Source of the DNA: Octopus sinensis
Lineage: Eukaryota
Direction: 5' to 3'
Assembly: GCF_006345805.1 (NCBI RefSeq)
Contig: NC_043004.1
Location: 43,276,001 to 43,340,000 of the forward strand
DNA: 64,000 nucleotides
How positions within the stretch are numbered: position 1 is the stretch's first letter; the number at the start of each line of letters is the position of its first letter. The translations under genes were made by a program, and so were the position numbers. Below are positions 6,626 to 64,000 of this stretch, in pieces. Below the pieces are notes generated by a model that was not told where the DNA came from, searched no databases, and saw nothing but the letters and a program-made list of their open reading frames with translations.

Positions 6626-7806
6626 ATGGACGGCTGCATTTGTATAACATTTGTCATATGAAAACAAGCAACTTCGTATCAACAGCAGCTGATGATCACT
6701 TATCAGAAGCAAAATGAAATAACTTGTTAAATAGCGGAAATGGGAAAAGGAATGATTGTAAGAGCAAAACAAGTGAAGTGAGCAAAATTCCTGCGTTCAG
6801 CACTGTTCATTTGGAGATGAGCCTGTAGTGTAGTATCAGGCCTGATATAGCACGGATTGTTGAAAGTTTCAACAATCAAGAATTCAAGTATTTGAGGGGA
6901 TCAGTATTAATTAATTTATTGCATTTAAACACTTGTAGCGTGATGATTAAGGATAATCGAAGTAAATGACTATCGATAGGTGTTATATTAAAATTAAGCT
7001 AGTATTGATATCAGTTAAAATACTTAGGGAAGTTAATGTTGAATCTATTTATACGTATCGTTAATATTCTTGTGAAATAGATGCAATAAAAATGTAATTT
7101 ATTTTTATTTTAGAAGATCTAGTATATGAATAATTGCTGCCTTGTCAAAAAGGGAATTATCATATATATATATCTAACAATTAATGATTCATAAATGGTA
7201 ATTGATATATCTGAATTAAAACATACATCTAAAGAATAATAATTTATAATGGGTAGTACAAAGAATCTTTATGTCAATTAATGGACTAGTTGTGGTGATA
7301 TTATTAAAGGCTGATAAAATCAAATGTCTATATTTTAGAATTTAACTCAAATTAAGCTTGACGACAGAGCTGCAAAAATATTTAGGTAAAATAGTGTTGA
7401 AACACACATTCACGTATACTTATAGTGTAAAGTATAATTAATAAAAATACATTTGGTATTTGGTAGTGTGAAGGGGAAAGTAAATATTTATATTTTTAAG
7501 GTATGCTTAGACATGCATCATATATTTTCAGCATATATTTTCGCATGCATCATATATCTAAAATGTGTTTTCACATGCATCTAGAAAATTATACGACGGT
7601 ATATATTTTACGATATATTACTTAAGTAAAATATTATTTCATAGCAGACAGTTATACGAGGAGCATTTTACGACTCGGAATTTTATCTAGGATAAATCTG
7701 AATGATATACCATTGGTTCGGAGAGCGTTGAAAGATTATTTAATGCTAGACGTTAGAACCCCATATTTAGAAGTTCTATATTGCAAGCAGTAGTGTAATA
7801 TAAGTA

Positions 7807-10007
7807 ACAAGAGCACTAATCGAGTGCAAACGTCCACCAATGTTTCTTTATTTTGGCACTAGGGCCACAACACAGAGGGGACACTACGAAAACAGACAAT
7901 ACCACAATGGGGTCAAAAATCATAAAACGAATGTAAATGAGATGTTATATAAAAATGAAAAATGAAATGGCTTCATGGGCTCCAGTCCTATGTAGTATCA
8001 TTTGAATGTTTATATAAACTATTTACAATCGTTCTATTATGTTATTGTTTTTTCTTAACCTAGCTTTTTCCTCTTTTTTTAAATGAAACAATTTTATTTC
8101 TTCCTTTTGTCTTCAATAAAACAATTTTACTTACTATTTACTTTTTTAATATCTCATGAAAGGTTCTAAATCTTTTAGCGTCACTACTGGTGCCAATTCA
8201 TCGAACTCTACCATCAGTTCTGACGGGTCAATCCCTTCTCCACACACGTCATTTAGTCTATTGTAGGTGTCCTTGTCAACCACGACGGCCTTCACATTCT
8301 CACTACACATCCGTGGGCAAATATTTCCTGCAACCGTCTTTCTGTTTCTTCCTCCAACAGCACCGCTTTCTCATCTCAATTGTACTCATTGTCAGCCTCT
8401 TTAACCCTTATTACAATTTTCTTTTCTTCCTCTAAAGTATTTTTGTAACTTCTCATAGTTCTTGCATATTTCCCCTTCGGCGACTATCTGCTGTTCCTCA
8501 CCACTCTCTTCCTCTGTTGCTGGTATTCCTGTCTTTGTTCGTCCTTTCTTCCCACTTTTATGTCTCTTCTTCTTCCGTCCTTCTTCCTCCTTACTAGTTA
8601 AAGGCAACTGTCTATGTGTTCGTTCCTCACTTGGCTCCCCATTCCTTCTTTTCTCGTTCTTGTTTTCCTCTGCCTTTCTTTTCTTCTTCGGGATTTTATG
8701 TGGGGATACCACATTACTCCTCTTTGTTTCTATCATTGCCTATTTTCCCAATATTCTCCTCCTCCGCTGTTGCACCCTCTTCTTCCTGACGTTCCTTCTC
8801 CGCTTCCGCTTGTTCGTGTTTCTGATAACACTTTACTTTCATGTCTCCCCTTACTACATATAAATAACATACCGGATATCTCCCTTCCACTAGAATTCAT
8901 AATATTGCCTCATCTGGTAGCACAAGCCCATCCGCAATTTTGTGGAGTACCGGCAGGCTTATATGGACCGACAGCTCCAGTCCATACCCCCAACAGTTCA
9001 GCTCCATCGTTCTCAATATCTTCAATACCTGTCTTCCCTGTGTTATAGAGGATGACTGCCACCAGCTACGCCTCATCAATTTCTGGAAGCACCCTAGCTA
9101 TTCTTACTCTGGCTGCACGTTTGCCACAGTAGGTAGGTAGCAGTGCCCACTCGTCTGATCCTAAAGGCACAGTGGAGCATTTCCTCGCTTCTTCTTCGCT
9201 TACGAAACGTACCACCACTGAGCCGTATTCCCTTCCTCTCGTGCAACATGTCGTTATATCCATTATCTCTCGTAGACACTCCTATACCGCTTCCTCCGCT
9301 GCTACTTCAATTTGTTTCGTTACCACATTCAACGTTCTATAAATAATTGCCCTATTTTCAGTTTTTTTTTCAAATATTTCTTTAGGGGGCGTCAACCTCA
9401 TGTTGTCCCTCTCCTCTCTCTTCGGCAAGCCATTATATATATATATTTTAATCCTCCTCCCTTAATTCGATTTCATGAACCTGCTGTACCTCTTCTGACA
9501 CGCCCTTGACAGTCACCGCAGGGTAATTGCTCGCTGGTTTGCTTTTCATGAGGGTATTACTCATAACTTCATCCAGTTCAACAATTCAGTGAATTAACAA
9601 TACAACAAAACCCACATTGAGTGGACACACTTCTCACACAGCTCGGAATCAAATGATTCGAAAAACAACACTAACGACAACGCCGGCGTACTCTCATCGA
9701 TTAGCCGGAGATGTTTGTTTTTTAAAATGAATATATCTTAAATTAACTCGAATGCTCTCATAAACGAGTATACTTAAAATGAACCCGTAGCTCTCAAAAA
9801 TAAATTTAAAAAAACCGAAATCCTTGTCAGGTACCGGATCGATACCAAAATATAATCAGTTTGTGCCAGTCACAAGGCCAAGCATCCCTGGTAGTTTCTC
9901 ACGAATCCATCCAGTGATTCTAGAGATATCTTGTCGACGGACTAACAAACAAACACAGAAACACGACTGAACAACAATGCGTCCGCCCTCGCTAAGGCGG
10001 AGGTAAT
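7807..10007 (+). mobile_element. Helentron-type non-autonomous element (HINE/DINE-1-like), split by a retroposon insertion
   Basis: 5' end AACAAGAGCAC...ACGTCCACC; 3' end with ACAA microsatellite, hairpin TCCGCC-8nt-GGCGGA and GGCGGAGGTAAT forming a subterminal inverted repeat with the 5' motif. Confidence 0.6.
7846..9710 (-). mobile_element. ORF1-only non-LTR retroposon (HAL1-like), decayed
   Basis: Minus-strand remnants SVVVRFVSEEEA, LLPTYCGKRAARVRIARV, VEGRYPVCYLCSK..H..KC zinc knuckle and a K/E-rich linker; tail ending AATAAAGAAA; ATGTTT at both junctions; no RT/EN seen. Confidence 0.7.
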
Positions 10008-12478
10008 TATTAGAATGCAAGTGTGAAATACTTTAATATCGGGGATCGCAGTTCAAATGACGATCCTATCTTATTTATGCTTTTCAAACGGCTGTCAGTA
10101 TACATCTGTTTATACTAGAGAAGAGGGTTAACTAGAGACTATTGTGAGAAAAACTAAACATAACGAAAGTGGTGGGAAAATATATAAATTACTACGATTA
10201 ACATATATGTATTACTTGAAAAAAGAAAAATAAACCGGCTATATAACACAAAAAAAAAACATTATGTCTCAAGTGATATCCTTACTACGTACAATTACAT
10301 ACCTGATAGTATTTTTCCAATACGAGTTTCAAGTGAGGTGAAAACAAACAGAAGCAGCTGTTATTAAAACAAAACAGAAGCGTACAAGACAGGATTCATA
10401 AGAAAACGAATTGATAACAAATTGTATCTCTATTGTGAATTGCTCAACATTCCCCAGTCTGAAAAGAGCACAGAAATTTTAGCTTGGCAGGAGCTCTGTA
10501 CACGAACACGCAAATACTCACGCACCCATGCAAACACACACGCACGCATACACACACACACACATGCATGTACACACATACACATGCACACACAGACTAC
10601 ACACACATATATACGCACACGCACACGAATACCCATAGCAACAATATGTATTGTTAATGACAGAATCACGAATGAAGGATGAGAGAGCCAGAATCGCTCT
10701 GTAGTTAGCCCTGTAACGCATCTCTTCTGTTTTGATTATTTCTCTGATTACAACGGCTCAACGTCTGCACAATGAGGGGAGATTGCGAAAATCTTCGAAA
10801 AGGTTTCTGGTGTATGACATCAACACAGAAGCAAGGAACAGATATGTAGCATGTGTAAGTTGGAGAAGAGGTTAAGAAGATATAGTTGGATTCTTCTAAT
10901 GTCTCATAAAGTATTCATGACTGAAATTATTAAACAATTATTAAACACGATTTATATTTAATGGGAAAATGTGACTTGTGTTGCGTGATTTATTCCCAGC
11001 TAATCAATGACATTCAAAATAGTAAACATTTCGGAATCCTGGAAGTTCTAGCCCATTCTTAGTCAGGTCTAATTAAAAATGAAACACGGTTTTGAATTTG
11101 AATGAATAAATATGTATGGCTTGAAGTAAATTTACATTCATAATAACTACAATTCATCAGGAAATTGAGAGATTAGCTTTTGTATCGCAATTTAGATAAA
11201 GTGCGAGTCAAATTTCGTGCAAAAGCACATCCTGCATATTGAAGCTGTCAACTGTTTTCCTCTGTAATTTTCTCAGTGATGAAACTGAATTTGTAGTTCA
11301 CTGCTGTTAATAGGTAAGATGCAAATGATCTATCCTGAGTGGGGAACCGGCTGAGTGTTTTGTAGTGTATATTAATGCTTACCGAACAAAGGTTTTCCAT
11401 AAGCATACCTATATGGCTAGAAACAGCAACGTTACACAACAGTTCGTAATTAATGTTACTCTATGGGAGAAATCAACAAAATTGATGTGAAGTATGATAA
11501 ATGTTAGAACATGTTATCATTATTACATATTATCATTATTACTCTCCGGAGTACTGCAAACAATTGAATATTTGTTTGATGATAGGAAAGTAGTTGCTGA
11601 CAAAATCTCACGTGAAGCCATTCTAACATGAAATCAGAAACACAGCGGATGAGTAAGATTACTTTTCAGGTGACATGCTGTTGAAGCAGAAAAAAAAAAC
11701 ACTACGAAAGTATTTACGTAATTCCTTGAATAAGCTTTCAAAAAAATCCAAACGGAATGCTTTATTTCTTTTCATTGGTTTTTGATTATCTAAATTAATT
11801 TCAAGGTAGTGTGCAACGCAGTTAATCTATTTATCTACGTATAAAATCTAAAGATGGATAAAGATCCTCTATATAATCTATAGAACGAAAACAACTGGTA
11901 TACTCTGACGACACTTTCTTCAAGATATAGGCGCTAACCAATGTAAAATATATTACAAGTACGGAAAATAAATTGCAAGTTTCTAATCTGTATATTGCTC
12001 TTAGAATGTTCGGTATGTTTATTTAGCGTAAATATTCTTGATGATATTGAAGATAACAAACCTTACCAGATTTTTTACTGCGTTACAGAGAGAACTGTTT
12101 AAAGTGAAATAATCAGAGCATTGGATTTTAAAAATGTATAAATGCCTACTTGTAATTAAATTCTTGAAAACTTTGTTTAACATGGTAGTAAATTACTTAA
12201 ATAATTATGAACACAAGTTTTGGGGATAGCAGAACCAAAATTCACAAACATATTTTGCATATAACACCAGTTTGTAAAGTAAGGTTACGACAAGAAGTAT
12301 TGCAAAACAATGCTAAACGTCAAGACTGAAATCTTAAATACACGCATATGTCCTAGTCCTGTGCGGTAGCCAGTTGTTAATCCTCAAGCTAGTCTGCCAA
12401 AATTATCGACCAGGTGTATTGAGTAGAGTACTTCCAGAAACAGTGCAGAGCGAAAGTGATATATATATATATATTGAA

Positions 12479-13625: not shown

Positions 13626-14935
13626 AACAGAGAAGGGAGAATATGAAAGGGTGTAAGTATAGCTATGAAGGGGCTGATTAGTAATGGATTCTATGGAGTG
13701 TAATATTTGTGTGTGTATATATATTTTTCTTTTATTCTAAAGTTGAGGTATATTAATTGTTTGTCGTAGACCCGTTAAGAAGTGGCTTGTATTTTGTAAT
13801 AAAGAGATTTTCTTTACTTATTCGTTGTCTCGAGGTTGTATCGTCCCTAAATGGTAGAGGGGGGAAATTCTGAAGTTTGGTGTTTTTTTGTTGGCGCAAG
13901 TATCTATGTGTTGGCTAAAAGCTATTTTTTGTTTTGGGGAATTTTTATCTGGGATCTGTGCAGGGCCATTCGTTTACGCAAACCATTTTTTGTTTGGCCT
14001 ATGTACTGCTCTTGACACCCGGAGCAGGTTAGTGAGTATATTAGGTTCTCCGAAGCACATGTGAAGTTGCTTTTCACTGTAAACCGTTGTCCCTGTTTGA
14101 AGGAGAACTCTGATCCCTCAATTAGATAGTCGCATATCCCGCAATTGGGTCTTCCACATTTTTTTAACTGTCGGCTTCTGTGTTGAAGAGTGAATTCGGG
14201 CTTGTGTAAGGAGACTTTTCATGGATCTAGGCTGTCTTTTTCTTTTTATGATCGTGTGTGTTTGGAGGATTGTGTTCATTCTGTGGTCTTTTTTTAGGAG
14301 GGGTATGTTGTGGAGGATGGTGTCGAAGGCTTCGTTATTGAGAGGGTTGTGTGTGGAGATGTATGGTAAGGCTTTTGGTTGTAAGTTTTTCTTTGATTTG
14401 GGATGTCTCAGTTCCTTGATGTTAAGTTGAAGGGCACGTTGAATGCACTTGTCAATAAGTGAAGGTGGATAGTTCCTGGTGATTAGGGTATCTTTTAGTT
14501 CTTGTAGTCGTGTGTCTCTGGTGTTTGCGTTAGAGACTATAGTGCGTTTCCTTTTTGCTAGATTGAAGGGGATATTCATCCTGGTGTGTCTGGGGTGGCA
14601 TGAATTGAATGGAAGATATTGCTTAGAGTCTGTAGGCTTATAATATATGTCTGTTTCTATTATATTATTAGCTTTCTTAATGAGGATATCGAGGAAGGGG
14701 AGTTGTTGTTGGCTATATTCCATCGTGAATTGGATGTTTACGTCCAGTCCGTTTAAAATTTTCTGGAATTCTATGAGTTTTTCTATATTTTTATGCCAAA
14801 GGATGAAACAGTCATCTAGATATCACTTCCAGTTGTTTTCTATGTAGATGGAGAAAGGGCTGCCATATCTTTCTAGAACCTTACGATACAGACTGATCTC
14901 TAGGTATCCTATGACTATATATATATATATTATAT

Positions 14936-21980: not shown

Positions 21981-22495
21981 TCATCATCATCATCATCATC
22001 ATGATATTCAGATATCGAACTATTCGATGCTGTGGTCATCACGATGTCTTGTCACCTTCCCCTGTCCTCTACCCCATGGACAGCTGAGATTAAGTACAAT
22101 CCTGTGGCTGCGATGTCTTTCAGCCAAGACGTGGGTGGTCTGCCTCTTTTACGTTTGCCGCTCACCTTGCCAGTTATGATGGTTCGCCCAAGTCCATCCC
22201 GGCGCATGAAATGGCCAAAGAACCGTAGCTTCCGCTTCAGGATTTTTCGCCGAAGCGTCATCTCGCAACCGACCTTTTCTATTCGTCCAGTTGTTCGTCT
22301 TTCTCTCTGTCCACGACACTCTAAGGATTCTGCGGTAACACCACATTTCAAAAGCGCTCACTCTTTTTTCGTCTGCCTTCAACATTGTCCACGACTCGCA
22401 GCCGTACGTCGCAATAGAGTAAGCGGCAGCGCGAAGTAGCCTTGTTTTCAGCAGCATTGACACGTCGCGACTCTTCCAGATGTTCTCCATATCTG
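21981..22495 (-). mobile_element. RTE-clade LINE 3' fragment with (GAT)n tail
   Basis: YGCESWT..AFEMWCYRRILRVSW, LRFFGHFMRRDG, GKRKRGRPPTSW; frameshifted. Confidence 0.9.
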
Positions 22496-23027
22496 TGTAG
22501 GCATAAACGAATTTTTGGTGAGTTAAAGTATGTTTGTGACTTACTTCAATTTTTAAAGTTAAATTCACTGCAGTTACCACGAATAACAAAAATCATCTTA
22601 AGGTAAAAAAAAAAGTGTAAAAGCAGCATAATTTTCTCCGTGCTGTCTCCCATCGTTTTCTCAAACGCATTCCGATCTCCTTAGCAATCTCGTGAGCAAT
22701 GGGAAATTTCGTAGAAAGGTAAAACAGAACAGATTTTAAAGCCATTGCTTTAGCTAAATGAAATTTAAGAACATTGACTTATAAGCGACGTGGGACCGCC
22801 AAGGCAAAATATATTGTACTGTATCAGCGCGAAGCAGTCTTTCTTCATAATATAATTGATAACAGCTAAACAGCTAAAACGATTTCTGTGGGTCCAATAA
22901 TGGCATAGCACTGGGTAAATATGTTGTACTTCTTCTCCGTGGTATCTGTAGTGAAGTTGCCCTTAGCAGTTGAAATATGTCACACACATTTCTTATTACA
23001 CCTAAAGATCGCTTGTGCCCAAACACT

Positions 23028-28199: not shown

Positions 28200-28960
28200 A
28201 AATACACCATGGTCACTTAGAACCAGATTTGTCTATATGTTCGCATAATGTAAAATGCTGACCCTGTTTGAAAGAGGACCCAAATCGCCTCAGTTAGGTT
28301 AACACATACTACAGTTAGGTCTTTCGTCCTTTTTTACTAATGGCTTCAGGGTTGTTGAGTGCATTCGGGCTTGTGTTAGGAGACTTTTCATAGATTTGGG
28401 CTATCTTTCACTCTTTATGATGGTGTACGTTTGTAGGATTAAATTCATTATGTGGCCCCATTTTAGTAGTGGGATGTTTTGAAGGATGGTGTTGAAGACT
28501 TCTTTGTTAAGAGGGTTGTGTGTGGAGATGTATGGTTGGGCTTTTGGTAATAAATTCTTCTTGAATTTAGGATGCCTGAGTTCGTGGATGTTGAGTTATA
28601 GGCCACGCTGAAAGCATATATAGATTAGTGATTTTGAGTAGTTCCTGCTGATAAGTGTTTCCTATAGTTAATTTAGTCGTGTATCCCCGGTACTTGTATC
28701 AGAAACTATAGTATAGATCCTTTTTGCTAGTTTGAAAGTGATATTCATTTTGCTGTGTTTGGAGTGGCAGGAGTTGAATAGTATTGGTTGGTGTCTGTGG
28801 GCGTTTAGTATATATCTGTTTCTATTTCGTTGTTAGATTTCGAATTGAACATTTCAAGGAAAGGGAGTTTTTCTTATGGCCATATTCCATTGTGAATTGA
28901 ATGTTTACGTCAAGTACATTTATAAGTGCTTGAAATTCTTTAAGGCTCTCTTTACTTTCA
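28200..28960 (-). mobile_element. Decayed PLE RT/thumb fragment related to 12948-14915
   Basis: Shares CATATTCCATTGTGAATTGAATGTTTACGTC, GAGGGTTGTGTGTGGAGATGTATGG and CCCTGTTTGAA blocks with 14090-14745. Confidence 0.85.
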
Positions 28961-28966
28961 TGACTT

Positions 28967-29665
28967 AATCGAAGCTAATCCGCGCACAACTTTTCGAAAA
29001 TTAGCTTCTCAATTAGACGTAGCGTTTACGCCACTTTCTAACCACTTGAAAGAGATTGGAAAAACAAAAGTATTTGAGAAATGGGTGCCGCACGAATTAA
29101 ACGACAACTAAAATTAACGCTGTTTTGAAGTGTTGTCTTCCCTTCTTTTACGCAAAAAGAACGAGCCGCCTCTCGACCGGATTGTGACTTGCAATGAAAA
29201 GTGAATTCTTTGCGACAGCCGGCGAAGCTAAGCTCAGCGGTTGGATGCCGACGAAGCCCCACGGCAGTTCCTGAATCCAAAGTTGCACCAAGAGAAGGAC
29301 ATGCTGACTGTTTGGTAGTCTGTAGCCGGTCTCATCCAGCTATTTGGAACCAGGCGAAACCATTACGGCGGCGAATTACTGTCAGCAAATGTATGAAATG
29401 CATAAAGATTCCGACAACAACAGCATTAGTCAATAGGAAAATACCAATTCTCCAGAACAACGCTCGGCCGCACGTCGCACAACTGACCCTGCAGAAGTTG
29501 AACGAATTGCGCTACGAAACTCTGCCTCATCCGCATTACTCACCAGAACTCTCGGCTACCGTCTACCTCTTTTACAAGCGTCTTGACATCTTCCTGCGTG
29601 AGAAATGCTTCATAAACCAAGACGATATCAAACATGGCTTCAACGACTTCATCGCGATCAGAAAC
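28967..29665 (+). pseudogene. Mariner transposase fragment
   Basis: KWVPHEL, IVTCNEK, QNNARPH, LPHPHYSPELS motifs spread across frames; no TIRs seen. Confidence 0.9.
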
Positions 29666-29804
29666 GTAAAAATGGACGGCATGAAACTAGATATTCTGCC
29701 CGACGTGCTAGCGACATGCTATATGCTTTTGTATAATTATGGAAAGGAAAATTTCCTTTACAAAATCAATCTCATTCATTATAATTTGTATGCTCATATC
29801 ATAA

Positions 29805-29837
<33 letters not shown>

Positions 29838-29839
29838 CT

Positions 29840-29875
<36 letters not shown>

Positions 29876-30195
29876 CAACGACTATTTTCTACTGAGAGAA
29901 TACGTTTCTGCTAGTTTAAATACATAAATTTTGGCTAGACGAAACAGATTCTGTACGTATATTCGGTTGACAATTCCAGCATTACAGCATCAAGAATGCA
30001 TTGCTAATTGTGCAGTAAACTGTGAAGACTTAAACGCACCAAATCGCTAGAATGCGTCAAATAGAAAGTTTTCTGAGCAGTTTCGTATGTTGTTAAAGAG
30101 AAAATTTGCAGATGTTTTCACAAATCCTTATTCGAGCTAATCAGAACCATAAGATTATTTTTAACCAGGAAATATAGTATGAAAACTTGCACCAT

Positions 30196-50309: not shown

Positions 50310-50890
50310 GCATGTACATGCGTGCATCTTTATAAGTTATATTTTTATATATGTAAGTGTTTCAACATATTTGAATAAAATTCTCTTCATAATTGTATTT
50401 GAAAATAAATTATATATTTAAAATGTATTTATTCATGGGAACCTGCAGAGGAATAAGTAGCATCACATAAATACTATGCTAAAACGTTACCAGAAATCTA
50501 GTAAATAAGAGGAAAACATTGATTCGTACAGAGGATATATCAGAAACCACCAATAATTCCGAAGCAGCCCACCAGCACTATTCATCATATTCCTCGATTA
50601 ATTGCAATTTTATGTATTTGCATTATTTATTTGAAAGTACAGTGAATATTCGAAATACTTTTGAAGCAATGTGTGTCGCTAATCTTCCAATTTTATTCTC
50701 AATGTACAAACACACGCGCGCACGCTCATACAAACACACACACATATACATATATAAATATACATACACACACACACACACATATATATTCATATATGCA
50801 CTATCGTGTTCGAAAAATAAAATTGTAAGTACATATGTGTGTGTGTTCGTGTATATATGTGCGTACATATAATATATATATGCATATATA

Positions 50891-52455
50891 GACTACCCCA
50901 CTAAACACCCCAACCATAGACTACCAGTACTAGACACTGAACTCTGGCTAGAAATTGTGAATAATAAAACCCAAATCCTTCATTCATGCTATGCCAAACA
51001 TATGGCCTCAAAATACTTGATCCACCGGAACTCAGCAATTTCGAACAATGCCAAATTCAATATTTTGATGGCAGACCTTGTCAGAATAATGAGAAATGTG
51101 TCACGCATGTGCGAGCCCACAGAGTTAAAGAGACACATACAATATTTCATTCACCGCATGCAGTTCTCAGGTTACAGCCATAAAGAAAGGATCAGAGTAT
51201 ACAAAGGAGCCATGAAGAAATTTGATGATATATTATGTAATGATAGGAATGGGATTTGCCCACTCTATAGGAACAAATCATGGAACACTATAGAAAGGAC
51301 AAAAAAGAAAATAGGGAAGGCTAACTCTTGGTATGATAGCCATAAATACCAGAGTGTCATGTTCGTTGACACCACCCTTGGAGGTGAACTGGCGTACCGC
51401 TTTAGAAGGACTCTAGACAAACTTAAGCTAAGAATTAAAGTTGTTGAATAGCCGGGCAACCCTATCAAATCTATAATTAGTAGAACCTATCCTTTTAGTA
51501 GAACCCTCTGTACGGATAAGTACTGTACTGTATGTAGATTTAGCCCCCAAACAAACTGTAAAGCCAGAAATGTAGTCTATAATATAAGATGTATAGAGGG
51601 ACGATGCAGTAACAAGACAACGACATACTTAGGGGAAACGGCAAGAAGCATAGGAGAGCGGGTAAATGAGAATTGGAGACAACTCAAGGAAGGTAAAAGC
51701 TCAGCGATTCTGTACCAACAGGCCGAACAGGAACACGGGAAATCAATCAACAATATAGGAATTAAAATATTGTCCACACATAGAACAGATGCAACAATCA
51801 GACAAATTACAGAAGCTACACACATAATAGAAAATAAACCTAGCCTGAATAGTAAACTAGAATGGAGCACTAGCACACACCACAACATATGACGATAGAG
51901 GATCCCCAAAACATGATAAATACACAGATAAATAAACAAATAGAAATAAATAACTATTCGATTCGATTTATTATTATTATTACTAGTATTGTTGTTATAC
52001 ATACATACTTACATACATACAAGCATATGTAATGATAATAATAAGTGGATGTAAACACATGAACAAAATAATAATAAACAAAAGCAACAAGAACAAAAAC
52101 AAAATACAAATTACATGAACGTATATAAACAGAAGATACAAATATTACATGCACCCCCCCAAAAACACACACTAAATAAACATGGACGCATATAGAGATA
52201 TAAGCATGCGGAAATGAAGACATACAATAGAAATACAAAATGGCTGACGGTTAGTAAGGAGAGATACAAATAAGAAAGAAGAAAACAAAGGACCACTGAT
52301 GCGGTCACAGGAATGTAACGAAAGAACTCTGACCGAAATAAGATTAAGATTAATGTAAAAAATAAATAACACTGAAGCAAAGTAACACCAAATATATAGG
52401 GCGTGTGTTTTTATTGGCTAAACTGGCAATATGACCATTCCGAAATATAACAATA
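50891..52455 (+). mobile_element. 5'-truncated Penelope-like element (RT thumb, Cys-rich linker, GIY-YIG, pLTR)
   Basis: One frame 50891-51892 with a single TAG at 51449: DYPTKHPNHRLPVLD ... CTDKYCTVC..NC..NVVYNIRC..C..YLGETARS..ER ... EA..I..KPSLNSKLEW; ends in (TA)n. Confidence 0.92.
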
Positions 52456-59531: not shown

Positions 59532-61110
59532 GTCTAACGACACCTTGCTTTGCCACCTACGGCGGCCTTGTTAACGCCTTTCTCGCTTGCTTGAGTGGGG
59601 AAGCGCTGTATTGGAAATGTTAACAGAAAATATTAGCTCCTCAGGCTTGTCGTCGTCTGAGGAAGAGCTAGTGAAATGTTTAAAGAAAATAGATGAAGTG
59701 GGAGTGGTGAAGTATTTTGCAGAGGGGGTGAAGGATAAGAGTGAAGACATATGCCTCAGAGATTTAAGTACATTTAAAGAAATGCTTGAAAAGGAGGGTA
59801 ATTAGGTAAAGGTGTCCCCTCCCAGCGATACCATGGAAGAAGTCACATGCAGAACTATAATGTACAGAAGTACAATGTGAAAAACCATTGAAGAGAGGTC
59901 GCAACCAAAGCAGCGGTTGAAAGGACTTTGAGGGTCTCATGGAAGAAATAAAATATCATACAAAAGGAAAAAAAATTGCAACGATGGTGATGCAGTTTGA
60001 GTCGGAGTCTGTGGCTATGACTCCCCTCGAGACGGAAAAGGTAGTTCTTCTGCCCAGATAGCTGGGAAGACTTTCTTCCAGTGTAAGAATAGAATAGATC
60101 CCTCTTCAGGTGGATGTTGTCTGGTTGGTACCCGCCATCCAATTGGCATTGGCCTCCAGGCCAAGAAAGTATCTACGAGGAATTGGCAAGAGCAGGGCCT
60201 GGAAATGGTAATCCAGGTTGCCTCTGATGTTAGGAGAGGATGGTGGAAACCATCACAGTCGGTGAAGACGTAAAGTTGAGAGTTATGTTGGAAGGTAAGA
60301 CGCCCCGATGCTTTGAACGTGGAAAATGGTTCACATAAAAGCAGAAGCCCACCACCCAGCGCAAAAAAAGGAAAGAGGGCGCATCTCCACCTCTTGCGAC
60401 ATCCTGTGAGGTCGAGAAGAAGGTTGAGGAGGACGAGAACCAAGTGTCTGAAGTGGAACAAGGATGGTAATCTGAACCAAAATACAATATAGAGGAAAGA
60501 AAAGAAAGAGGAAAATATGAACCCCACCCTACTCACATCCGGCTCCCACGCAATGCCATCATTTTCCACCCTCCCCCTGTAATCACACACCCTCACCCTG
60601 CTCTGCTGGTACAGACACTTGCACTGACATCCAGATGCCCGAGATTCCAACATCCATTCCCCAAAAGAAAAAAAAAAGAAACGCAGATATAAAGTATGCT
60701 ATTTTATATGCCAATGCGTCAAGAACAGAAATAAACACTGATGTGCCGGTGGACATTTCAAAGTGCAAGGATTGGCCCGAGCACGTTGTGTGCGAATGGT
60801 GAGCAACAAAGACAGGATTAAGTTAAAGAAAAAGTATGGAGATAAACTAGTGGACCTAGAAAGGGAAATTGGCGTACGTTGCCTCCAAGATTGGCCTTTG
60901 ATCACATTGAAACTAACTTTTAATTATATAAAAAGAAAGTGTGTCAAATGTATTAAGTGAGGTCGCTCGGGTGTGGGGTCGCGTGTCCTTCATTCTATTA
61001 TCTTTATTCAATCCCATCTTTTCATTCATTTTTCTTTTCTTCCCACTTATAAGTTTGTCTGTCATTGAATTGCCCCCTCTTCGTTTATCCCGCGGTGGGC
61101 AATAAAGAAA
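59532..61110 (+). mobile_element. ORF1-only non-LTR retroposon (HAL1-like), decayed; homologous to 7846-9710
   Basis: MVMQFESESVA, LLPR*LGRLSSSVRIE, NWQEQGLEMVIQV, MLEGKTPRCFE knuckle remnant; tail CCCCTCT...GTGGGCAATAAAGAAA; AAATTTACT / AAATATTACT at the junctions. Confidence 0.7.
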
Positions 61111-61440
61111 TATTACTTCGATATGGAGAATGTCTTCCTAATGAAGTGGATATTATTTGCTAGCATAAGTGGAATTTTGAACTTTCTTACCTTACTAAAT
61201 TGTACCCCAGGAACGAACGTCGAATGAACATCCTCTAATAACAGGACTTTTCCTTAATGTTTAATCGTTTATTGTTTTGTAGTTATTTGCTCTTTGAAAT
61301 ATCTAAAACTATTTTTTTGCAACCTGACGACTTAGACGCTTTTCTACATAATTAATATATGTTTTACTTTATTTACAACTCAAACAATTTTACCTTATTT
61401 AGACCTCAACTGATTTTACATTATTTTAATCTATATTTGT

Positions 61441-61493: not shown

Positions 61494-64000
61494 CTATTGA
61501 TCTGCATTCAATTGGGTTAATGTATGTGTATTTTTAAAATACACATCTACAGAAATAAATTGACGTCCAACTAAATGAAATTATAAACATCTAAGAGACA
61601 ACAAACACACAAAACTAACTTTTCAAATGGAAGTAAGCCGTTCTCAATTTAGTAATAGAAACAATTCATCAATAAGAAATACTAGAAATAACCAGTCTAT
61701 TGATAGGCGTAATTATTTCTCCCCAGAAAATTGAAACGTTGAAGAAACTCAACCTACGGAATTTCGTCATATTTACCCAGAAAGAAAAATCAAATCCTCA
61801 GGTTCTCACATATGATTAATCACCCTAATAATTTATTCCAGCGAAGAAACTCGAGCAAGGTGCTTCTAAAACATTTACCCGAACAGCAACACCAACTCCA
61901 AAGCATTCCTAATATAATTAATAGCAATAATAACACTGATAACGTCTACCGACCAAATTACACTGAACACATTTTAGACCGGGTGGAGAGAAACAGGGAT
62001 GCATGTTGGAATAAACCATACAGGAGAAATTCAAAGTAATAAATTTATCAAAGAAAACTCTCTCCGCAACAAAAGTCTCTATACTAGGTAAAGGATTAAA
62101 ATCCATCCCAACCCCACGAAGATCTGACCATAATGAAATTAAAGACAATATTTCGGAATTCTGCAAAAAAAACCAAAAACACCCGCAGAAGCAGTAACTG
62201 ATAAACAACGAGGATTAATCACTGAAGTAATTATCTTCCACTTAAATGTAGGAATAAAATATTACATGACTTCTGCGTCCATATCCGAAATTTACCAAAT
62301 ACTTTCCATAATCTGAAAATCAATTGAAATCTTAACAGTGCAGAATGGAAAAATCTGATTAAACTACAAAATGACAAAGAATTGGCTGTACAAGAAGCAG
62401 ACAAATGAAGTGCTGTAGTCCTGATGGACACAGAATACTACAAATGCCTAGTATTATCCATGATAAAAAACGACAACTTCTACGAAAAAGTTGTAAACTA
62501 TAAACAACAAGACACAATGAAAAATCTGGTATCCCTAATACTTCTGTTTGGAAAAAGCCTGACAGAAAAATAAATAGATTACATCAAGTCTTTAAAGGTA
62601 AACCTATCCTTTTTTTAAATTAAAATACAAGAGAGCAAGGTAGTTAATGAAACCTGCCAACAATCACCAGGCAAAGACATAAATATCTAAGCGCCAGACG
62701 ACTTAAAGTTAAGATCCATTATAGCTGGCCCAGACTGTGGAACCCATTGCCGAACCAGTTTTCTAGACATCCTAATGAACCCCTTGCTCAAATACATCAA
62801 ACCTTCCATTAGAGACGATTTAGACAAGCTAGAGCACCTACCAGAAACAACTACTGATGCGGCATTATTGGTTTCCTCTGATGTTATCATTCTTTACACC
62901 AACATCCCACATGATTACGGAATAGAAGCAATACAATTCTGGTTGGAAAATTACTCCAAAGTACTTCGGGATCGCATGAACCTTGTCTTTATTATTGATT
63001 CTTTATAATTGATACTTCCTACTGAATGATACCCATTATCGTCGAATATGCGGAATTGCGATGGGAACGAAAGCAGTCCTTGTTCTTGCGAACATAGTAA
63101 TGGGTTATTTTGAATTCACTATATATGAAGTGTCACTGCAAAAATTTGGCTATCCATTTCACCATTATATAAGAGAGAACTGGAAAAGATACCTGGATGA
63201 ATGTTTTGCCATTTGAAAGGAGACCATTGATAAACTTTTGGAATTCAAATCAATACAAAATAAAATAAAAACCCTAACATTAAATTTACAGTGGAATATA
63301 GCAAACAACAGCTCCCTTTCCTGGATATTAGGATAAAAAAATATTCATAAACCAAATTATAACTGACATTTATCATAAACCAACTGACCCGTAGCAACAT
63401 CTCCTGTTTAGTTCATGCCACCCGAAACACATAGAAAGAAATATCCCTTTTAATTTAGCAAAAAGGATTTGCACAATAGTGTCTGATACAATTACTCAGT
63501 ACGTTCGTCATCTGGAACATAATATCCACCCTCACTTATAGGCGTTGGAATTAAGCGTGCTAAGCAATTAGACACTAAAACACTAAGGGTAACAAAACGT
63601 AACACTGCACCTCATCTCAAAACACTACTGTATATATCAACTCACAAACCTAAAAACAATAAGGTATGCAACTCTATTGTACAAAATTTACCTATGCTGA
63701 CTAGAGATCCAAAAATGAACAACATTCTGAAAATACATAACTTCATGAAAAGCACAGAAACAACACAAATCGCTAAAAGACTTCTAACAAATGCGAAGCT
63801 TTGCACTACCACGAAACCAACGGCTGAAAAATGTAGACGGCCAAACTGTGGATCATGCTGCAACCTACTGGATGGTCTGGAGTTCTTATTCAAACAAGGA
63901 GGGATGTTCACAATTAAAACCAATGTCACTTGTGTTTCCGAGAATCAAATTTATGTTATAACTTGCTCAGGTTTTGGACATAACTATACTGGACAGAGAA
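61490..64000 (+). mobile_element. Long Penelope-like element, pseudogenised, running off the window end
   Basis: LGKGLK, DVIILYTNIPH, GIAMGT, WKRYLDECF, LPFLDI, SCHPKH..NIPFNLAKRICTIVS, NVTCVSENQIYVITCSG. Confidence 0.93.

What the first reader, a model, noticed from the sequence alone, without database searches (positions are those of the whole stretch)
7846..9710. ORF1-only retroposon with apparent TSD (HAL1-like), copy 1
Seen: a ~1.86 kb unit holds only remnants of an ORF1/gag-like protein (RRM-like segment, VEGR-P-CxxC knuckle, charged linker, C-terminal domain) followed directly by a LINE-type tail. It has ATGTTT at both ends (7840-7845, 9711-9716) and interrupts a Helentron-type element, which fixes its boundaries. 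Known: HAL1 (half-L1) elements keep ORF1 and borrow ORF2 in trans. Inference: this unit moved whole without its own RT. I do not know of such a family described in cephalopods, but could not search.
Basis: partly seen in the sequence, partly recalled or inferred. Interest (0 to 1): 0.72.

Follow-up and report, generated by a model that had tools for sequence, protein, structure and literature searches.

The report
Fused half-LINEs inside a Helentron repeat
This 1.84-kb stretch of likely octopus DNA is a broken fusion of two jumping-gene families that carry only an RNA-binding gene and no reverse transcriptase, and that land at fixed spots near one end of an abundant short repeat, likely using enzymes borrowed from full-length relatives.

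Summary
The family idea holds; this copy and its TSD do not. The true unit is 7841-9677 (minus strand). ATGTTT is a chance match: 9678-9716 belongs to the host, a ~370-bp Helentron-like (HINE) repeat. The unit is a chimera: the 5' 1.36 kb comes from ORF1-only family A, the 3' 0.48 kb from family B, joined out of frame at ~8319. None of 39 other scored matches spans that joint. Whole A and B copies (mostly 1.7-1.9 kb) exist elsewhere, have no EN/RT (0 of 30 loci with an endonuclease after ORF1), and carry 14-15-bp TSDs at two adjacent fixed sites at the HINE's 3' subterminal repeat. Intact A-B tandems occur. ORF1 (two predicted RRMs, CCHC knuckle) shows purifying selection across lineages. A young autonomous L1/Tx1-type LINE has a homologous ORF1 and a related tail with a covarying hairpin, and is the likely kind of helper; none was found at the HINE sites. 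Works like HAL1/HeT-A plus Tx1L-in-Tx1D targeting; not a HAL1 member. The scan noted octopus ORF1-only Tx1 elements before on other DNA (SINE targets).

The parts
9678..10010 (-). 5' part (about nt 1-337) of a ~370-bp non-autonomous Helentron-like repeat (HINE): 5' palindrome/subTIR at 9980-10007, short GTTT microsatellite
   Evidence: 3987 candidates, 40 scored; 22 of 24 other loci are empty hosts that read through the site; coordinates
9678..9692 (-). Family A target site (15 bp, decayed); present here only on the 5' side, duplicated on both sides of full A copies
8320..9677 (-). 5' portion of an ORF1-only family A element: 5' UTR (about 70 bp shorter than in L004), ORF1 from ~9560, lacking its last ~335 nt
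   Evidence: 78-82% identity to L002-L007, ending at unit position ~1390
8828..9437 (-). Decayed tandem-RRM region and degenerate CCHC knuckle of ORF1 (stops, frameshift near 9035)
   Evidence: 67% and 60% identity to L029; domain call from intact relative L122:
8309..8321 (-). A::B joint in imperfect microhomology; out of register (part of the C-terminal domain repeated) and out of frame
   Evidence: spanned by 0 of 39 other scored matches
7841..8319 (-). 3' portion of an ORF1-only family B element: rest of the C-terminal domain (stop at 8146-8148), 3' UTR, A-rich end without poly(A)
   Evidence: 82-88% identity to L010, L012, L013, L016-L018, L025, L026, L030
7854..7867 (-). Predicted 4-bp stem-loop just before the 3' end, shared with covarying stems by ORF1-only and autonomous families
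   Evidence: 34 of 43 tails pair 4/4, shuffled mean 13.6, max 23; RNAalifold found no consensus on the MAFFT alignment
7805..7840 (-). 3' end of the HINE (about nt 340-374): family B target site / 3' subTIR at 7827-7840, 3' hairpin at 7813-7827; host nt 338-339 are missing
59540..61112 (+). Remnant of a different, more distant ORF1-only family (not a copy of this unit)

Best explanation
The unit is a dead fusion of two ORF1-only retroposon families (A and B) that lack endonuclease and reverse transcriptase, insert at two adjacent fixed sites in the 3' end of a Helentron-like repeat, and are likely copied by target-primed reverse transcription with ORF2 borrowed from an autonomous L1/Tx1-type LINE. 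Shown: anatomy, absence of ORF2, 14-15-bp TSDs, fixed sites, tandem stacking, purifying selection on ORF1, related tails. Inferred: the element makes its own ORF1 protein to package its RNA; the 3' stem-loop recruits the helper ORF2; the helper endonuclease picks the site; the duplicated site lets later copies stack. This locus likely held A and B in tandem and lost A's 3' end, the spacer and B's 5' part by a microhomology-mediated deletion, either when a 5'-truncated B inserted or later.
For: Split matches 1-1392 and 1391-1865. Host ends at nt 337 (A's site) and resumes at nt 340 (B's site), as expected for a collapsed tandem. Intact HINE-A-B-HINE tandems at L060 and L109/L010. A second A::B chimera, L160, has the same host ends but another joint with 5-bp microhomology. 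0 of 30 loci with EN after ORF1, against 5 of 5 autonomous controls. HINE next to 14 of 20 A-type and 8 of 9 B-type loci and 14 of 30 loci found by protein (the sets overlap in part). Filled hosts are no closer to each other (83.9%) than to empty ones (86.1%) and form no clade. dN/dS 0.10-0.45 for pairs with dS 0.5-1.5. Autonomous relative: homologous ORF1 plus 1132-aa APE-RT-zf-RVT ORF2. Its target follows the endonuclease subfamily: 11 of 12 copies of one subfamily share a GG(A/C)GGAAA-type site that resembles B's site. ORF1-only units stand in tandem with autonomous copies.
Against: No autonomous element was found at the HINE sites: 0 of 15 site-A and 0 of 6 site-B exact junctions, and 0 of 30 autonomous-tail loci lie in the HINE, so the actual helper of A and B is not identified. 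A's site does not resemble any autonomous target seen. Not all copies are targeted to the HINE: 16 of 30 protein-found loci had no HINE match. RNAalifold predicted no consensus hairpin. Deletion cannot be told from template switching. Tx1 clade placement was not tested by an RT tree.
Confidence: 0.8

Rival explanations
1. The chimera formed during reverse transcription: synthesis began on a B RNA at the B site and jumped to a co-packaged A RNA, whose 5' end joined at the A site.
For: Other mixed elements occur: ORF2::A (L149), autonomous::B (L056), A::ORF2 (L162), another ORF1::B (L065). The joint has only short microhomology.
Against: The 5' junction is exactly A's own site (host nt 337), not B's (nt 353), in both the window and L160, which a collapsed tandem explains directly; intact tandems exist.
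Confidence: 0.12
2. One reading: the 1.86-kb unit is one family member that moved whole and made a 6-bp TSD.
For: ATGTTT is at both stated places; length is like that of real family members.
Against: The left hexamer lies 33 nt inside host sequence; family TSDs are 14-15 bp; the joint is in 0 of 39 other scored matches and breaks the frame.
Confidence: 0.03
3. The ORF1 pieces were captured once and spread as cargo of the rolling-circle host.
For: Many copies share the same flanking repeat.
Against: 15-bp TSDs, several diverged subfamilies stacked at the site, relatives at other targets, and no clade of filled hosts (the host tree is poorly resolved).
Confidence: 0.03
4. The internal joint is an assembly collapse of an intact A-B tandem.
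For: The locus has the outer ends of such a tandem, and intact tandems exist elsewhere.
Against: A and B are only about 50-60% alike at the joint, a poor substrate for a collapse; a second chimera with a different joint exists.
Confidence: 0.05

Closest known systems
HAL1 (half-L1) of mammals (PMC5753468 and PMC5786205, passages read; Bao and Jurka 2010 not held, title seen only in reference lists)
   Same: Non-autonomous LINE derivative that encodes only ORF1p and keeps the 3' end; several lineages.
   Different: ORF1 is the RRM+CCHC type I kind, not the coiled-coil/RRM/CTD mammalian L1 kind; no poly(A) tail; fixed insertion sites; mollusc host.
HeT-A and other ORF1-only telomeric Jockey elements of Drosophila (PMC13534243, PMC5786205, passages)
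   Same: ORF1-only, head-to-tail arrays mixed with autonomous partners, ORF1-only lineages that give rise to new ORF1-only lineages.
   Different: L1/Tx1-type rather than Jockey; internal insertion with 14-15-bp TSDs into a dispersed repeat rather than chromosome ends.
Tx1L in Tx1D (Xenopus); Tx1-Mar and SINEU in Mariner-N4_AMi (crocodilians) (PMC4494074, passages)
   Same: Tx1-type elements and their non-autonomous dependants insert at fixed places in a non-autonomous DNA transposon, in tandem with a TSD between copies.
   Different: Here the dependants encode ORF1, and the host is a rolling-circle HINE hit at its 3' subTIR; no autonomous copy was found at that site.
HINE / DINE-1 non-autonomous Helentrons (PMC4067079, passages) - for the host repeat
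   Same: Palindromic 5' subTIR, microsatellite, 3' subTIR, 3' hairpin, T-rich flanks, no evident TSD.
   Different: 3' subTIR about 25-35 nt from the end (38-60 in the mite HINEs); autonomous Helentron not sought.

Membership tests
HAL1 | Encodes ORF1p only, no EN/RT | tested here: met
   0 of 30 loci with EN downstream, 21 of 30 with tail
HAL1 | Derived from mammalian L1 (type II / Transposase_22 ORF1p) | tested here: not met
   No Transposase_22 match; zf-CCHC and tandem RRM instead
HAL1 | Multi-copy family of near-constant length with TSDs | tested here: met
   For families A and B: 10 of 11 selected A copies with a 15-bp TSD, 1.45-2.07 kb; B 1.80-1.85 kb in 3 of 4. Not met by the window unit itself.
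HAL1 | ORF1 under purifying selection while mobile | tested here: met
   dN/dS 0.10-0.45 at dS 0.5-1.5; 35 of 210 pairs had dS under 1.5. That this defines HAL1 is recalled, not read.
Tx1 clade (autonomous relative) | ORF1 with RRM+CCHC, ORF2 with APE, RT and C-terminal zinc finger, L1-like | tested here: met
Tx1 clade (autonomous relative) | Target-sequence preference | tested here: met
   15 of 22 ORF2-bearing tail loci read into one target; target follows EN subfamily
Tx1 clade (autonomous relative) | RT phylogeny groups with Tx1L/Keno rather than other L1 | not tested
   No named Tx1 reference sequences were on hand
HINE / DINE-1 (host) | subTIRs, 5' palindrome, microsatellite, 3' hairpin, T-rich flanks | tested here: met
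   alignment of 25 hosts against the features in PMC4067079
HINE / DINE-1 (host) | Shares termini with an autonomous Rep/Helicase Helentron | not tested
   no search made
Catalogued repeat (Dfam/Repbase) | Family already in a repeat library | not testable with these tools
   no repeat library on hand; the O. vulgaris library of PMC13282606 was not seen

The most novel reading that the evidence does not exclude
Octopods carry an old, self-renewing clade of ORF1-only retroposons whose families each home to their own spot in another repeat (HINE site A, HINE site B, a SINE head, others), and the choice of spot is set by the parasite itself, through its own ORF1 protein or through flanking target sequence carried on its RNA ends, not by the borrowed endonuclease. 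Not excluded because no autonomous copy was found at 21 HINE junctions, copies about 85% alike (L003 versus L004) use different targets, the elements end without poly(A), and A's first bases resemble its target.
Probability: 0.15. Interest if true: 0.8.

Novelty: new variant of a known kind. Interest (0 to 1): 0.45.

Why it matters
It joins two known strategies, ORF1-only parasitism (HAL1, HeT-A) and targeting of another transposon (Tx1L, Tx1-Mar), in a lineage where I found neither described. Many families with different fixed targets, naturally intact ORF1-only copies and naturally intact ORF2 helpers whose targets change with a few endonuclease residues make two open questions testable: why a non-autonomous element keeps ORF1, and what sets target choice in trans. 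The window's own copy is a dead chimera and matters only as a record of how stacked copies recombine.

Tried and rejected
Independent check of the internal joint: contigs of four public runs (X1, X2, X4, X5) laid at 96% likeness did not cover 8302-8344; cover was patchy elsewhere too, so this says nothing either way. No RNA holder listed. RNAalifold on 43 tails gave no consensus structure, probably because loop lengths differ; the hairpin rests on my anchored count, for which 3 of 45 candidate tails were left out (L141 with a deletion; L106 and L117 mis-anchored), and which reflects only about three independent stem types. Profile comparison of ORF1 with a fish ZCCHC3-domain LINE protein aligned only the knuckle, probability 17.6%. 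Pfam found only zf-CCHC in ORF1. The word-based homologue search found one protein. The RT fragment upstream of B in L016 was first taken as B's own ORF2; it is an autonomous copy fused to a B 3' end. Insertions near HINE nt 198 are not ORF1 elements. No TSD found for the 59540-61112 element. The endonuclease step failed on a wrong option and was rerun; L188 was mis-oriented. Bao and Jurka 2010 could not be read. A look-up of earlier findings by the host sequence gave nothing.

Full report
Setting. The window is G000:C8:43276001-43340000 in a 2.7-Gb genome. Named homologues of the ORF1 come from Octopus vulgaris, O. bimaculoides, O. sinensis and Argonauta hians (7 of the 10 proteins looked up... 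6 carried such a name, 4 had none), so the genome is likely an octopus.

What is in the sequence. The minus strand of 7846-9710 holds a decayed ORF in three frames. It matches open frames of relatives at 67% and 60% identity over 9437-8828 and again over the charged linker and C-terminal part; the knuckle has lost two of four ligands, and the 1132-aa ORF2 of the autonomous relative has no match near it.

Boundaries. A search with 9690-10010 gave 3987 candidates, 40 scored. Of 24 other loci, 22 are empty hosts, one is filled by a B-type 5' end and one is truncated. The host is about 370 bp with a 5' palindrome, a GTTT microsatellite, a 3' subterminal inverted repeat, a 3' hairpin and T-rich flanks, the features given for HINE/DINE-1 in PMC4067079 (passages). 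The host runs to 9678 on one side and resumes at 7840 on the other, so the unit is 7841-9677. The left ATGTTT lies inside the host and 0 of 24 other hosts have it; a shared 6-mer within 20 nt of two ends occurs in 38% of random pairs. Contigs of runs X1 and X2 bridge both outer junctions with 0-1 differences, and X5 bridges the 7841 junction.

The unit is a chimera. Genome matches (57 matches, 40 of 703 candidates scored) split into those covering positions 1-1392 and those covering 1391-1865. In 100-nt windows the first 1.36 kb is mostly 70-91% like family A copies L004 and L002 and the last 0.48 kb is 79-92% like family B. The joint near 8319 sits in imperfect microhomology, repeats part of the C-terminal domain and shifts the frame. 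0 of 39 other scored matches (40 of 62 candidates) span it. The host stops at its nt 337, A's site, and resumes at nt 340, B's site, so no TSD is left. Intact host-A-B-host tandems exist (L060; L109 with L010), a triple stack of A subfamilies exists (L058), and L160 is a second A::B chimera with the same host ends but a different joint.

The families are real. Eleven A copies chosen for having host on both sides are 1.45-2.07 kb (six of them 1.74-1.81 kb); ten show a 15-bp duplication of host nt 323-337 and one has a shortened 3' copy. Four B copies duplicate about nt 340-353; three are 1.80-1.85 kb. Of 30 loci found with an ORF1 protein (30 of 150 matches), 0 have an endonuclease in the 1.5-1.7 kb after the ORF1 core and 21 show the tail there; 5 of 5 autonomous controls have it about 500 nt downstream. 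One locus (L114/L162) has a partial ORF2 without endonuclease behind ORF1. A HINE match lies next to 14 of 20 A-type and 8 of 9 B-type loci (whose query held 33 nt of host) and 14 of the 30 protein-found loci; others sit in different recurring targets, such as one shared by L091 and L094 and one by L003 and L007. Filled hosts are 83.9% alike to each other and 86.1% to empty ones and need 10 changes on a poorly resolved tree (shuffled mean 12.4), so hitch-hiking on one filled host is unlikely.

The protein. An intact relative (L122, 460 aa) folds with mean pLDDT 68.9 and pTM 0.32 into two alpha/beta domains, a knuckle, a long helix, a disordered linker and a small C-terminal domain. Foldseek's best matches are tandem RRMs (E 4e-4); the Atlas gives CCHC and ZCCHC3-type RNA-binding clusters at 0.90-0.92. 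This is type I ORF1 (RRM plus CCHC) as described in PMC5203782 (passages). Among 21 ORF1-only frames, 35 of 210 pairs had dS under 1.5; dN/dS was 0.10-0.45 where dS was 0.5-1.5 and 0.12-0.66 for the closest pairs. Eighteen rows, A and B among them, fall on one side of a 99/98 branch, apart from three autonomous and three other ORF1-only rows; the root is only a midpoint, the rows were picked for being open, and not every row's 3' end was checked.

The likely helper. A young L1/Tx1-type LINE has a homologous ORF1 and a 1132-aa ORF2 with endonuclease, RT and zf-RVT; its closest solved structure is human L1 ORF2p. Its 26-nt tail has 204 exact matches, some spaced about 1.78 kb apart (ORF1-only units) and some 5.2 kb apart in the same arrays. 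Tails of A, B, other ORF1-only and autonomous families align, and a 4-bp stem pairs fully in 34 of 43 (shuffled mean 13.6, max 23) with three stem types, though RNAalifold found no consensus. Of 22 ORF2-bearing tail loci 15 read into one target, and targets follow endonuclease subfamilies: 11 of 12 copies of one subfamily share a GG(A/C)GGAAA-type site similar to B's. Against a named helper: 0 of 15 site-A and 0 of 6 site-B exact junctions carry an autonomous 3' end; one (L149) is an ORF2 fragment fused to an A 3' end.

Mechanism. Shown: ORF1-only anatomy, TSDs, fixed sites, stacking, selection. Inferred from established non-LTR biology: own ORF1 packages the RNA, the tail hairpin recruits ORF2 in trans, the helper endonuclease nicks the site, and the duplicated site invites the next copy. 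The window copy most likely is a collapsed A-B tandem.

Literature. ORF1-only LINE derivatives are known: HeT-A, HAL1, Ag-Sponge (PMC5786205, PMC5753468, passages), and ORF1-only lineages that found new ones (PMC13534243, passages). Tx1 elements that target DNA transposons, with tandem non-autonomous dependants, are known (PMC4494074, passages). An O. vulgaris repeat annotation lists 13 recently active L1-Tx1 families and has no occurrence of HAL1, non-autonomous or Helentron in its main text (PMC13282606, part 1 of 3 and a term search; supplements and library not seen). PMC9115989 and PMC8967140 (passages) showed no such family. Searches listed no report of ORF1-only Tx1 elements in cephalopods or of Helentron targeting; subscription papers and Repbase Reports are not covered. 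Earlier notes of this scan describe octopus half-Tx1 elements at SINE targets; they are unchecked leads and were seen after my reading was fixed.

Verdict. A new variant of a known kind: target-specific, ORF1-only L1/Tx1-type retroposons in a HINE. The copy flagged is a dead chimera with a spurious TSD. Interest 0.45.

Noticed in passing
window 59540-61112 (+): Remnant of a separate, older ORF1-only family with the same kind of tail; 53 matches at 64-80% identity; no TSD found; one relative (L220) follows an ORF2 3' end.
   Followed up: partly
G000:C9:654470-666881, C4:78434598-78450430, C7:96719142-96726226 (L207): Young arrays in which 1.78-kb ORF1-only units with the exact autonomous tail alternate with 5.2-kb autonomous copies.
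   Followed up: partly
L118, L119: Tandem 3.57-kb units with ORF1 and an ORF2 that lacks the endonuclease and starts near the RT, repeated head to tail among full copies: possibly an endonuclease-less derivative.
   Followed up: no
L120, L169-L197: The main target of the youngest autonomous subfamily appears to lie inside a decayed ORF1-like sequence, that is, inside a relative.
   Followed up: no
alignment: Endonuclease subfamilies 90-92% alike use unrelated targets; differences cluster in a few short segments.
   Followed up: partly
L058 882-1384, L059 749-1411, L065 2617-3461 (oriented), also L004, L028: Several HINEs carry another insertion near host nt 180-198; those in L058 and L059 are related to each other and not ORF1 elements.
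   Followed up: partly
L091, L094: A-like copies inserted at one shared site that looks like a tRNA-SINE head (label recalled, not tested).
   Followed up: no
L007 ~671, L013 ~882, L018 ~1023 (oriented): An abundant short repeat, probably a SINE, ends in a tail like that of the autonomous LINE.
   Followed up: no
window 13922-14822, 28249-28962, 50873-51892, 62691-63495: Fragments of RT and GIY-YIG-like frames, probably Penelope-like elements (label from reading the ORFs, not tested).
   Followed up: no
window 22052-22592 and 29198-29914: RTE-like and mariner-like fragments (labels from reading the ORFs, not tested).
   Followed up: no
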